DNA of 18,138 nt from a virus (taxonomy: Duplodnaviria; Heunggongvirae; Uroviricota; Caudoviricetes): the IMG/VR virus record IMGVR_UViG_648276671_000016; one strand, written 5' to 3'. The position numbers were made by a program, and so were the translations under genes. Positions 15,482-16,266 of this stretch are shown one piece after another (position 1 is the stretch's first letter; the number at the start of each line of letters is the position of its first letter). The notes under the pieces are model-generated. The model was given only the letters and a program-made list of their open reading frames with translations, was not told the DNA's origin and searched no databases.

Positions 15482-16182
15482 ATACCCAATATTTACAGTA
15501 TGTCCGCGAGCAACTCATTGTGGCTACCGCTGATTTGAGCGGAGCAACGAAAGGCCAGCTTGAAGCCTGGCTGGAGCATGCACAATTTGATACTGGTACA
15601 TATAAACGAAAGAAGCCGCGCATTCTGGATGAGGTAACGGGCAAGATGATTACGCTGGATAATCCGCCGATCCCGGGAAAACAATCGCTGGCGAAAGGCT
15701 CATCAATTGCCCTGGTCAGCCCGGTTGAGTTTTCGACATCATCATGGCGGCGGGCGGTTCTGTCTCTTGAAGAACATCATAAAGTCTGGTTGTTGTGGTG
15801 TTATGGCGGAAACATTTACTGGGAGCATCAGATCGCGATAACGCAGTGGGCATGGAACGAGTTTAAGGCTCTGTTAGGTACAAGAAAAATTGCCAGTAAA
15901 ATACTGGAACGCTTAAAGAAGTTGATCTGGCTGGCTGCACAGGATGTGAAGAACGAACTGGCCGGGCGTAAGACCTATGAATACCAGGCGCTGGCGGCGC
16001 TGCTTGGTGTGGCTAAATCCACTTGGACGGGGACTTATCTTCCCTACTGGTTGATGATGCGGGATGTATATGTCCGTCTGGATAACGAATCATTGTGTCA
16101 TGCGTCCCTGACTCGTTCGCAACAGAAGTCGACAAACTATCATCAAAATATTGCAAAAACGAACCGGAATCGCTATATTTAA
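15478..16182 (+). CDS. Q: Late-gene antiterminator Q (long Q family, about 230 aa)
   Basis: 234-aa ORF with GGAG RBS in the canonical position after rusA/ylcG and immediately before a short promoter/terminator unit. Family assignment is from position and size rather than recognised motifs. Confidence 0.65.
   Translation: MNTQYLQYVREQLIVATADLSGATKGQLEAWLEHAQFDTGTYKRKKPRILDEVTGKMITLDNPPIPGKQSLAKGSSIALVSPVEFSTSSWRRAVLSLEEHHKVWLLWCYGGNIYWEHQIAITQWAWNEFKALLGTRKIASKILERLKKLIWLAAQDVKNELAGRKTYEYQALAALLGVAKSTWTGTYLPYWLMMRDVYVRLDNESLCHASLTRSQQKSTNYHQNIAKTNRNRYI
16151..16179 (+). promoter_or_regulatory. Candidate late promoter pR'
   Basis: -35 TTGCAA (16151-16156), 17-bp spacer, -10 TATATT (16174-16179), overlapping the last codons of Q. 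Would initiate about 70 nt upstream of the terminator at 16235-16266. Confidence 0.3.
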
Positions 16183-16234
16183 TGAAATCCTGATATTATG
16201 CGAATTTTATATTCTCTGGTAGTAAGCCAGCTTT

Positions 16235-16266
16235 CCCCAAGGAGCTACTCCTTGGGGTTTTTATTT
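16235..16266 (+). terminator. Strong intrinsic terminator (tR'-like) just downstream of Q
   Basis: 10-bp GC-rich stem CCCCAAGGAG-CTA-CTCCTTGGGG (16235-16257) followed by TTTTTATTT. Confidence 0.65.

What the first reader, a model, noticed from the sequence alone, without database searches (positions are those of the whole stretch)
16151..16266. Very short Q-associated transcript unit
A -35/-10 pair overlapping the end of Q and a 10-bp GC stem terminator only about 55 nt past the Q stop would give a roughly 75-nt terminated RNA, shorter than the lambda 6S RNA. Late transcription must pass this terminator and the one at 17208-17230 before reaching the holin, so both are likely targets of Q-dependent antitermination.
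Basis: partly seen in the sequence, partly recalled or inferred. Interest (0 to 1): 0.35.

Follow-up and report, generated by a model that had tools for sequence, protein, structure and literature searches.

The report
Phage-82-type late promoter and terminator
This is the ordinary late-gene switch of a phage-82-like prophage: a promoter at the end of gene Q makes a roughly 79-base RNA that stops at a strong terminator unless the Q protein lets RNA polymerase read on to the lysis genes.

Summary
A -35 TTGCAA (16151-16156), a 17-bp spacer and a -10 TATATT (16174-16179) lie at the 3' end of a phage-82-family Q gene (PF06323). A 10-bp hairpin (16235-16257, -17.4 kcal/mol) with a U-tract follows.

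The promoter hexamers alone are chance-level. The composite motif of promoter plus downstream pause element is unique in the window, never appears in 200 shuffles, and sits at the same place in 67 fetched loci (101 were brought in through a Q relative).

Numbering by homology with the experimentally studied phage 82 pR' gives:
- +1 at 16186
- an extended -10-like sigma-dependent pause element, TGATATTAT, at +6..+14
- GCG at +15..+17
- U at +25
- a terminated RNA of about 79 nt

Relatives give 56-87 nt, so the short length is typical of the family. It needs small corrections: the RNA is about 79 nt, not 75, and the second terminator is at 17217-17241, after an AraC-type cargo gene.

This is a new member of a known kind and of low interest. 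One side result may matter. Across about 54 DNA haplotypes and 120 protein clusters, Q's predicted recognition helix co-varies almost one-to-one with a hexamer at -27..-22. That hexamer is a candidate core of the still undefined Q82 binding element.

The parts
15478..16182 (+). Gene Q, a phage-82-family antiterminator of 234 aa. The other family members listed are 229-230 aa (one of 227). The ancestral stop at -21..-19 is CGG here, which adds 5 residues.
   Evidence: PF06323 at 3.5e-88. 77% identical to phage 82 Q: roughly nine-tenths over residues 1-170 and well under half after that. Only 2 of the 120 listed protein clusters are 234 aa.
15976..16053 (+). Codons 167-192 of Q. This is the predicted helix-turn-helix, with the class-specific recognition helix AKSTWTGTYLPYW.
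   Evidence: AlphaFold2 with a 52-sequence alignment gives helix 169-176, a turn, then a helix from 180, with pLDDT 83-93 in this region. The Foldseek matches with the highest probability are chains of the AlpA antiterminator complexes 7xya/7xyb (prob 0.96/0.90, but E 0.25-0.42, so not significant). The literature predicts a C-terminal HTH for 82Q (PMC9371919).
16151..16156 (+). PR' -35 hexamer TTGCAA, inside the Q coding region.
   Evidence: TTGC is invariant and TTGCAAAA nearly so in 46 distinct relatives. The same TTGCAA lies at the end of the Q gene in the phage 82 record X92588.
16159..16164 (+). Hexamer ACGAAC at -27..-22, the candidate specificity core of the Q-binding element within the 17-bp spacer (16157-16173).
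   Evidence: The hexamer class maps one-to-one onto the Q recognition-helix class in 52-54 haplotypes. Mutual information peaks at -27, -26, -24 and -22. The QBE of 82 PR' is described as lying between -35 and -10 (PMC4914094). This assignment is inferred and has not been tested.
16174..16179 (+). PR' -10 hexamer TATATT.
   Evidence: Conserved at 91-100% per position in relatives.
16186..16186 (+). Predicted transcription start (+1), an A within AAA at 16185-16187.
   Evidence: It lies 7 nt after the -10. Placing +1 the same way in PhiR47_2, whose Q is 97% identical to phage 82 Q, reproduces the published 82 pR' landmarks GCC at +15-17 and U at +25 (PMC5001585; sequence). The position is inferred by homology.
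16191..16199 (+). Sigma-70-dependent pause element: extended -10 TG, then A, then the -10-like hexamer TATTAT (+6..+14).
   Evidence: Positions +6..+11 (TGATAT) and T at +14 are 93-98% conserved in relatives. The 82 pR' pause element is described as a -10-like sequence with an extended -10 (PMC5001585).
16200..16211 (+). GCG at +15..+17, the discriminator-like and upstream-hybrid element. It is followed by an A/T-rich stretch and the predicted pause positions +25/+26 (16210 T, 16211 A).
   Evidence: 82 pR' has GCC at +15-17 and pauses at +25 (U) and +26 (PMC5001585). T at +25 is found in 93% of relatives.
16202..16230 (+). Two small leader hairpins: GAAU/AUUC at 16202-16214 and CUGGU/GCCAG at 16216-30.
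   Evidence: They appear in the minimum-free-energy structure. Analogous hairpins starting at +13..+15 occur in most leader classes with different sequences, but support is modest (z -0.1 to -3.2; window -1.16).
16235..16266 (+). Intrinsic terminator tR': stem-loop CCCCAAGGAG-CUA-CUCCUUGGGG at 16235-16257, then UUUUUAUUU.
   Evidence: -17.4 kcal/mol; unique in the window. Hairpin-plus-T-tract terminators occur in 57 of 63 distinct relatives, 55 of them ending at +49..+80. 6 of 10 aligned pairs show compensatory changes. The minus strand has no T-tract after the stem.
16359..17157 (+). Cargo gene (moron): its own promoter-like site TTGGCA-18-TATACT at 16359-16388, and a YdeO/GadX-like AraC-family regulator gene at 16423-17157.
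   Evidence: The cassette is 85% identical to one that lies after the tail-fibre genes in phages mEp332, PhiR70_1 and ev099.
17217..17241 (+). Second intrinsic terminator: a 7-bp stem at 17217-17234, then T7.
   Evidence: -10.6 kcal/mol.
17336..17551 (+). S21-type holin, the first late (lysis) gene, with the dual-start motif MKSM.
   Evidence: PF04971 at 6.7e-34. Gene calls in identical contigs.

Best explanation
The region is the late-gene regulatory module of a phage-82-type lambdoid prophage. It comprises promoter PR', whose -35 and spacer lie inside the end of gene Q, a Q-binding element in the spacer, a sigma-70-dependent pause element in the first 14 transcribed bases, and the intrinsic terminator tR'.

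The proposed mechanism has these steps:
- Host RNA polymerase with sigma-70 starts at about 16186.
- Sigma re-binds the -10-like TGATATTAT, and the polymerase pauses near +25 (16210).
- Without Q, the polymerase resumes and terminates at the hairpin 16235-16257. This releases an RNA of about 79 nt.
- With Q, Q bound to the spacer DNA loads onto the paused polymerase and makes it terminator-resistant.
- The modified polymerase reads through tR', the AraC cargo gene and the second terminator (17217-17241) into the holin and lysis genes.

The following are shown here: all sequence elements, their spacing, their conservation in relatives, and the gene order. The following are inferred from phage 82 biochemistry: the start site, the pause, Q loading and the read-through.
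For: - Q belongs to PF06323 and is 77% identical to phage 82 Q.
- The composite promoter-plus-pause motif is unique in the window, absent from 200 shuffles, and present at the same position in 67 fetched loci.
- Per-position conservation in 46 distinct relatives is high: -35 TTGCAAAA, -10 TATATT, +1 AAA, +6..+11 TGATAT and T at +25.
- The numbering reproduces the published 82 pR' landmarks: GCC at +15-17, a pause at U+25 and an extended -10-like element (PMC5001585).
- The terminator is strong and unique in the window. It is conserved as a structure with compensatory changes. 57 of 63 relatives have a terminator, and for 55 of them the predicted RNA is 56-87 nt.
- The close relative L022 has four substitutions in the middle of the leader but none in the -35, spacer, -10, pause element, +25 or terminator.
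- A copy of the leader-terminator-AraC block moved to the tail-fibre region of other phages. There it has lost the -35 and Q, and its hairpin has decayed to -2.8 kcal/mol with no U-tract.
- The holin gene lies downstream on the same strand.
- The literature describes PR', QBE, pause element, terminator and late genes as the common plan of all three Q families (PMC9388147; PMC4914094).
Against: - There are no transcript or protein data for this sequence.
- The hexamers alone are chance-level.
- The discriminator-like triplet is GCG, not GCC. In 82 pR', changing +17 C to A halves the pause half-life (PMC5001585), so pausing here could be weaker.
- Q carries an unusual 5-residue tail.
- The spacer differs from 44 of 46 relatives at -21 and -19, with unknown effect on Q binding.
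- The U-tract is only 5 U before an A.
- Whether the prophage is still inducible is unknown.
Confidence: 0.85

Rival explanations
1. The terminated RNA of about 79 nt is not just a by-product. It acts in trans as an Hfq-binding regulatory small RNA in the lysogen, as StxS does in Shiga-toxin phages. This would add to the antitermination role rather than replace it.
For: PR'-type promoters are constitutive, and in Stx phages the tR'-terminated RNA is a functional Hfq-dependent sRNA. The same paper proposes that this may be common (PMC7547250). The RNA here ends in a strong hairpin plus U-tail preceded by an A/U-rich stretch, which are features typical of Hfq-dependent sRNAs (my own knowledge).
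Against: No Rfam family matches. The middle of the leader, where a seed would lie, is the least conserved part. It differs completely between leader classes and at 4 positions between the window and its closest relative. No target or Hfq data exist.
Confidence: 0.12
2. The hairpin is merely the upstream boundary or insulator of the imported AraC cargo cassette. The module is a non-functional remnant in a cryptic prophage, with no Q-regulated transcription.
For: Homology with the AraC cassette of mEp332 and ev099 starts near the -10 and includes the leader and hairpin. Leader, terminator and AraC gene therefore travel as one mosaic block. The region has no megablast match in 5,426 complete E. 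coli genomes, so the variant is rare.
Against: Every functional element is intact and in register with the family consensus. The terminator and promoter are unchanged in the diverged relative L022. In the phages where the block sits away from Q, the hairpin has decayed, which argues that its maintenance here depends on the Q context. The integrase, repressor, O, P, Q and holin genes are all open.
Confidence: 0.06
3. Transcription starts elsewhere, for example at the other promoter-like site at 16116-16143 (TTCGCA-16-TATCAT). Alternatively, the ORF 16198-16407 (69 aa) is a real gene and the hairpin lies inside it.
For: Both features are listed by the mechanical scans.
Against: The 16116-16143 site is one of a chance-level number of hits. 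It lies in Q codons that vary among relatives. The 69-aa ORF has no Pfam match, and a 1-bp indel breaks it in L022.
Confidence: 0.03

Closest known systems
Phage 82 late promoter region (82 pR', QBE, +25 sigma-dependent pause, terminator) with the Q82 antiterminator
   Same: - Same Q family (PF06323) and same -35 TTGCAA inside the end of Q.
- Same 17-bp spacer and -10 TATATT, and the same distance to the extended -10-like pause element.
- G/C triplet at +15-17 and U at +25.
- Hairpin terminator giving an RNA of about 80 nt. PhiR47_2, the 82 proxy, gives about 83 nt.
   Different: - The C-terminal third of Q, including the predicted recognition helix, is well under half identical to Q82.
- The spacer hexamer is ACGAAC rather than CTGGAT.
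- The pause hexamer is TATTAT rather than TATTTT.
- The triplet is GCG rather than GCC.
- The leader from +18 and the terminator sequence are different.
- Q is 5 residues longer.
- An AraC cargo gene and a second terminator lie before the holin.
Phage 434-type variant of the same module
   Same: Same Q family, same -35, same 17-bp spacing, with -10 TATACT.
   Different: The 434-type leader is only about 56 nt, with the terminator hairpin starting at +28 and no leader hairpin. The 434 record annotates a CII site and the paQ promoter on the opposite strand of the -35. In the window that site has one mismatch (TTGCAATATTTTGA), and the prophage has YdaS/YdaT instead of a lambda-type CII.
Lambda PR'-qut-tR' and its 6S RNA
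   Same: Same logic: a constitutive late promoter, a QBE between -35 and -10, a sigma-70-dependent promoter-proximal pause, a terminated short RNA, and Q-dependent read-through (PMC9388147, PMC4914094).
   Different: Lambda Q belongs to an unrelated family (PF03589). Its pause is at +16/17 and its RNA terminates at +193 (PMC4914094). There is no sequence similarity.
StxS, the PR'-tR' small RNA of Shiga-toxin phages
   Same: A short RNA made from an antiterminated late promoter and ended by tR' (PMC7547250).
   Different: StxS is processed from a 258-nt transcript to 74 nt, binds Hfq and has known targets. Nothing comparable is shown here, and I found no sequence relationship.

Membership tests
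Q82-type late-gene antitermination module (PR'-QBE-pause element-tR') | A PF06323 Q gene lies immediately upstream on the same strand. | tested here: met
   PF06323 at E 3.5e-88, covering profile positions 1-218 of 220. 77% identical to phage 82 Q.
Q82-type late-gene antitermination module (PR'-QBE-pause element-tR') | A sigma-70 promoter whose -35 lies in the last codons of Q, with a 17-bp spacer. | tested here: met
   TTGCAA-17-TATATT at 16151-16179. The same sequence and spacing occur in 46 distinct relatives and in the phage 82 record. Promoter activity itself was not tested.
Q82-type late-gene antitermination module (PR'-QBE-pause element-tR') | A -10-like sigma-dependent pause element with an extended -10 at about +6..+14, a G/C triplet at +15-17, and a pause at U+25. 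| tested here: met
   The sequence TGATATTAT-GCG...U25 is in the same register as 82 pR' (PMC5001585). Actual pausing is not testable with these tools.
Q82-type late-gene antitermination module (PR'-QBE-pause element-tR') | A Q-binding element between -35 and -10 that is bound by the cognate Q. | not testable with these tools
   A class-specific hexamer at -27..-22 co-varies with the Q recognition helix. Binding has not been measured, and no Q82-family structure exists.
Q82-type late-gene antitermination module (PR'-QBE-pause element-tR') | An intrinsic terminator shortly downstream of the pause site. | tested here: met
   A 10-bp hairpin of -17.4 kcal/mol plus a U-tract, unique in the window. 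Conserved with compensatory changes.
Q82-type late-gene antitermination module (PR'-QBE-pause element-tR') | Late (lysis) genes lie downstream on the same strand. | tested here: met
   S21-type holin PF04971 at 17336-17551 and DUF1327 after it. Lysozyme and Rz follow in identical contigs.
Q82-type late-gene antitermination module (PR'-QBE-pause element-tR') | Q-dependent read-through of the terminator. | not testable with these tools
   This needs in vitro transcription or reporter assays.
StxS-like Hfq-dependent sRNA derived from PR'-tR' | Hfq binding and base-pairing with target mRNAs. | not testable with these tools
   Only generic features are present: a terminator hairpin, a U-tail and an A/U-rich stretch.
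StxS-like Hfq-dependent sRNA derived from PR'-tR' | Sequence or structure similarity to a described sRNA family. | tested here: not met
   No Rfam match at gathering thresholds. At E up to 10, only sub-threshold chance hits on the hairpin appear.
Lambda-type PR'/6S RNA module | A lambda-family Q (PF03589), a pause at +16/17 and an RNA of about 194 nt. | tested here: not met
   Q is PF06323 only. The pause element is placed for +25, and the RNA is about 79 nt.

The most novel reading that the evidence does not exclude
Natural co-variation reveals the recognition code of the structurally unsolved Q82 family. The residues at the start of the helix after the turn (about 179-191) would read a hexamer at -27..-22 of PR'. 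That would define at least five interchangeable Q/QBE specificity classes. The window (helix AKSTWTGTYLPYW, hexamer ACGAAC, 5-residue tail, and changes at -21 and -19) would be a rare sixth, privately co-evolved pair. If so, co-resident 82-type prophages of different classes would not cross-activate each other's late genes.
Probability: 0.35. Interest if true: 0.45.

Novelty: new member of a known kind. Interest (0 to 1): 0.2.

Why it matters
For genome annotation, the region can be labelled with confidence as PR', the Q-utilisation site and tR' of an 82-type prophage. It also explains how the AraC-type cargo gene is wired: it has its own promoter in the lysogen and is read through by Q-modified polymerase during lytic growth.

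Beyond that the finding is ordinary. The wider value lies in the comparative data set it led to. About 60 distinct 82-type late-promoter regions show which bases are fixed and which vary. They also show an almost one-to-one pairing between Q's predicted recognition helix and a promoter hexamer. The Q82 family is the only one of the three Q families without a solved structure or a defined mode of loading, and PMC9388147 names it a research priority. This pairing gives concrete residues and bases to mutate.

Tried and rejected
- **Rfam.** The whole window at gathering thresholds and 16050-16450 at E up to 10 gave nothing real.
- **Complete E. coli genomes.** Megablast of 16000-16420 found no match. 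The identical Q and leader do occur in draft assemblies GCA_000176655.2 and GCA_027220125.1 and in metagenome contigs.
- **ORF 16198-16407 (69 aa).** Rejected: it has no Pfam match, and a 1-bp indel in L022 breaks it.
- **Alternative promoter at 16116-16143.** Rejected: it is a chance-level hit in variable Q codons.
- **A CII-activated antisense promoter (paQ) on the minus strand of the -35, as annotated in phage 434.** The window's site is TTGCAATATTTTGA, one mismatch from TTGC-N6-TTGC, and the prophage carries YdaS/YdaT rather than a lambda-type CII. I did not pursue it.
- **Exact published sequence of 82 pR'.** It is not present as text in the library, and PMC3058920 is not held. I therefore used PhiR47_2, whose Q is 97% identical to phage 82 Q, and checked it against the published landmarks.
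- **PDB sequence search with a Q profile.** No relative was found.
- **Structure prediction.** The single-sequence model was useless (pLDDT 39.9). A 52-sequence alignment gave a usable C-terminal half. Foldseek found nothing significant.
- **Leader hairpin as a conserved RNA element.** It is present in most classes, but z-scores are modest, so I do not claim it.

Full report
**What is in the sequence.** The window is a lambdoid prophage. On the early side it carries an integrase, a YqaJ-type exonuclease, RecT, an S24 repressor, YdaS, YdaT, O and P. These are followed by an inverse-autotransporter cargo gene, an esterase, the nin genes, rusA and ylcG. Last come Q, an AraC-family gene, an S21-type holin and DUF1327. 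Gene Q (15478-16182) matches Pfam PF06323, the phage 82 Q family, at E 3.5e-88.

The consensus scan finds TTGCAA (16151-16156), 17 nt, then TATATT (16174-16179). It also finds a hairpin at 16235-16257 with 10 pairs, 7 of them G-C, and a 3-nt loop, followed by TTTTTATTT.

**Is it more than chance?** The promoter hexamers alone are not: the scan gives 8 promoter-like sites against 6.9 +/- 2.7 in shuffles. The composite TTGCAAAA-N15-TATATT-N11-TGATAT is another matter. It occurs once in the window even with two mismatches allowed, and in none of 200 shuffles. It is found exactly, at the same distance from the Q stop, in 67 of the 105 loci held at that point, 101 of which had been fetched through a Q relative.

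The hairpin is the only one in 18 kb, on either strand, with at least 9 pairs, at least 6 G-C pairs and a T-tract. Shuffled windows give 0.01 such hairpins each. Its free energy is -17.4 kcal/mol. The 81-nt leader folds with a z-score of -3.09.

**Comparison with relatives.** I fetched three sets of loci:
- 16 genomic loci from Citrobacter, Klebsiella, Raoultella, Escherichia, Shigella and Buttiauxella
- 80 viral contigs
- the annotated phages 82, PhiR47_2 and 434

In 46-63 distinct sequences the following are fixed or nearly so:
- T at -37
- TTGCAAAA at -35..-28
- A at -23
- TATATT at -12..-7
- AAA at the start
- TGATAT at +6..+11
- T at +14
- C at +17
- T at +25

A hairpin plus T-tract follows in 57 of 63. 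For 55 of those the predicted terminated RNA is 56 nt (434 type) to 87 nt; the other two leaders are longer, about 120 and 170 nt. The window gives about 79 nt.

An alignment of nine different terminators yields a 10-pair consensus stem in which 6 pairs show compensatory double changes. The structure, not the sequence, is what is kept.

**Anchoring to experiment.** The phage 82 record ends at the Q stop, but it shows the same TTGCAA in the last codons of Q. PhiR47_2 has a Q that is 97% identical to phage 82 Q. Placing +1 seven bases after its -10 gives three landmarks:
- GCC at +15-17
- U at +25
- TG-A-TATTTT at +6..+14

These are exactly the features published for 82 pR': a discriminator-like GCC at +15-17, a pause at U+25/+26, and a -10-like element with an extended -10 (PMC5001585).

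The window is in the same register, with these coordinates:
- +1 at 16186
- TG-A-TATTAT at 16191-16199
- GCG at 16200-16202
- U+25 at 16210

The literature places the Q-binding element of 82 PR' between -35 and -10. It shows that 82Q loads on the sigma-70-paused complex at +25 with help from NusA (PMC4914094). It also gives the plan Q gene, PR', pause element, terminator, late genes as common to all three Q families (PMC9388147). Short terminated RNAs from the late promoters of phages 82, 21, phi80 and P22 are already on record (PMC7547250).

**Mechanism.** The most likely reading is the textbook one, with confidence 0.85:
- Initiation at 16186 is constitutive.
- A sigma-dependent pause follows near 16210.
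- Without Q, the polymerase terminates at 16235-16266 and releases an RNA of about 79 nt.
- With Q, loaded from the spacer DNA onto the paused polymerase, transcription reads through tR', the AraC gene and the second terminator into the holin gene at 17336-17551. The second terminator is the stem at 17217-17234 plus T7 (-10.6 kcal/mol).

What is shown here is the presence, register and conservation of every element. The start site, the pause, Q loading and the read-through are inferred from phage 82.

Two internal controls support selection on the elements:
- **The close relative L022.** Its Q is 98% identical, and it has four substitutions in the middle of the leader (16206, 16209, 15 and 26). 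It has none in the -35, spacer, -10, pause element, +25 or terminator.
- **Phages mEp332, PhiR70_1 and ev099.** They carry the same AraC cassette behind their tail-fibre genes, with homology that begins near the -10 and includes the leader. There, away from Q and without a -35, the hairpin has decayed to -2.8 kcal/mol and the U-tract is gone.

**What is particular to this copy.**
- **Divergent C-terminal third.** Q is 77% identical to Q82 overall, roughly nine-tenths over residues 1-170 and well under half after that (DNA alignment).
- **Lost stop codon.** In every other family member the stop codon T(G/A)A sits at -21..-19 inside the promoter spacer. Here it is CGG, so Q runs 5 codons further and stops right after the -10.
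- **Rare length.** Only the window's own protein cluster and one other, 88% identical, are 234 aa among the 120 best of 2,766 family proteins.
- **Private leader and terminator.** The leader from +18 and the terminator sequence are private to this lineage. Megablast finds no match in 5,426 complete E. coli genomes, though identical copies exist in draft assemblies and metagenomes.

None of this changes the classification.

**A side result: Q helix and promoter hexamer co-vary.** Sorting the haplotypes by the motif after the predicted turn in Q (residues about 179-191) and by the spacer hexamer at -27..-22 gives a one-to-one map in 52-54 distinct haplotypes:

| Q helix motif | Hexamer at -27..-22 |
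|---|---|
| K(S/A/P)TWTETYLPHW | CCGAAC (ACGAAC in the window) |
| KNWSETFTxRW | CTGGAT |
| KNWSKTFTxHW | GTAGAT |
| TNWSQNYVEHW | ATGAAC |
| DNWSKNYGDYW | GTCAAT |

The coding stretch between helix and hexamer exists in types that are shared across classes, and the leader types assort freely. Recombination has therefore occurred on both sides of the pair and between its two parts. Mutual information with the helix class peaks at -27, -26, -24 and -22 (0.9-1.0 of 1.83 bits). That is higher than at any position in -75..-36, which lies closer to the helix codons.

An AlphaFold2 model built with 52 homologues puts residues 169-176 in a helix, 177-179 in a turn, and 180 onward in a helix, with pLDDT 83-93. 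The Foldseek matches with the highest probability are chains of the AlpA antiterminator complexes, but they are not significant (E 0.25-0.42). The literature predicts a C-terminal helix-turn-helix for 82Q (PMC9371919). No solved structure of the family exists.

Four caveats apply:
- The hexamer also encodes the last two residues of the 229-aa proteins, so protein-internal co-evolution is an alternative explanation.
- The haplotypes are not independent.
- Among 120 protein clusters there is one true discordant recombinant, with an H1 helix and CTGGAT (P0066, locus L106).
- Binding has not been measured.

I rate the recognition-code reading at about 0.35.

**A second side observation: a leader hairpin.** Most leader classes form a hairpin that starts at +13..+15, right after the pause element, with its loop near +23..+25. 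The arms differ between classes:
- TGCCA/TGGCA
- TGUCA/UGACA
- GCGAAU/AUUCGC in L022
- AUGCUGCC/GGCGGCAU

Z-scores against shuffles are all negative but modest (-0.1 to -3.2; window -1.16). I record this hairpin and do not claim it.

**Verdict.** The object is a new, somewhat divergent member of the known phage-82-type PR'-qut-tR' module. Interest is low (0.2). The only part that could matter to specialists is the comparative evidence on how Q82-family proteins choose their promoter.

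Noticed in passing
window 15976-16053 and 16159-16164; loci L004-L101, L106: The class of Q's predicted recognition helix and the class of the promoter hexamer at -27..-22 pair almost one-to-one across the Q82 family. They do so even though the sequence between them and the leader are shuffled by recombination. One natural discordant recombinant exists (L106).
   Followed up: yes
window 16165-16182: The family-wide Q stop codon at -21..-19 is mutated to CGG here. Q therefore gains 5 residues (RNRYI) and its ORF runs through the -10 hexamer. Among 120 family clusters only this one and a second cluster share the 234-aa length.
   Followed up: partly
window 16199-16230; leaders of L004-L101: In most leader classes a hairpin starts just after the pause element (+13..+15), with its loop near the pause site. 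The arm sequences differ between classes. Thermodynamic support is modest and its function is unknown.
   Followed up: partly
window 16181-17157; L002 2500-3488; L003 2500-3401: The AraC-family cargo gene and its upstream region occur in phages mEp332, PhiR70_1 and ev099 behind the tail-fibre genes. There they still carry a fragment of an 82-type PR' (-10, start and pause element) and a decayed copy of the terminator. This implies the cassette moved from a late-promoter site to the tail-fibre region.
   Followed up: partly
window 16263-16330: Repeats lie between tR' and the AraC gene's promoter: GCAACG...CGTTGC, ACCGTT...AACGGT, and the direct repeats TGCAACGA/TGTAACGG. They are conserved in the phage copies of the cassette and may be operator sites for the AraC-type regulator.
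   Followed up: no
window 16141-16156, minus strand: The sequence TTGCAATATTTTGA overlaps the -35 on the opposite strand. In phages 82 and 434 the equivalent is a perfect TTGC-N6-TTGC, annotated in phage 434 as a CII site and the paQ promoter. Here it has one mismatch, and the prophage has YdaS/YdaT rather than a lambda-type CII.
   Followed up: partly
window 9081-13629: A 1157-aa inverse autotransporter (intimin/invasin-like: IAT_beta plus Big_1/Invasin_D3 repeats) and a convergent 347-aa esterase lie between the replication gene P and the nin genes. This is large cargo in the early-right operon.
   Followed up: no
window 17336-17347: The holin starts with MKSM. This is the dual-start motif of S21-type pinholins, which gives antiholin and holin forms.
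   Followed up: no
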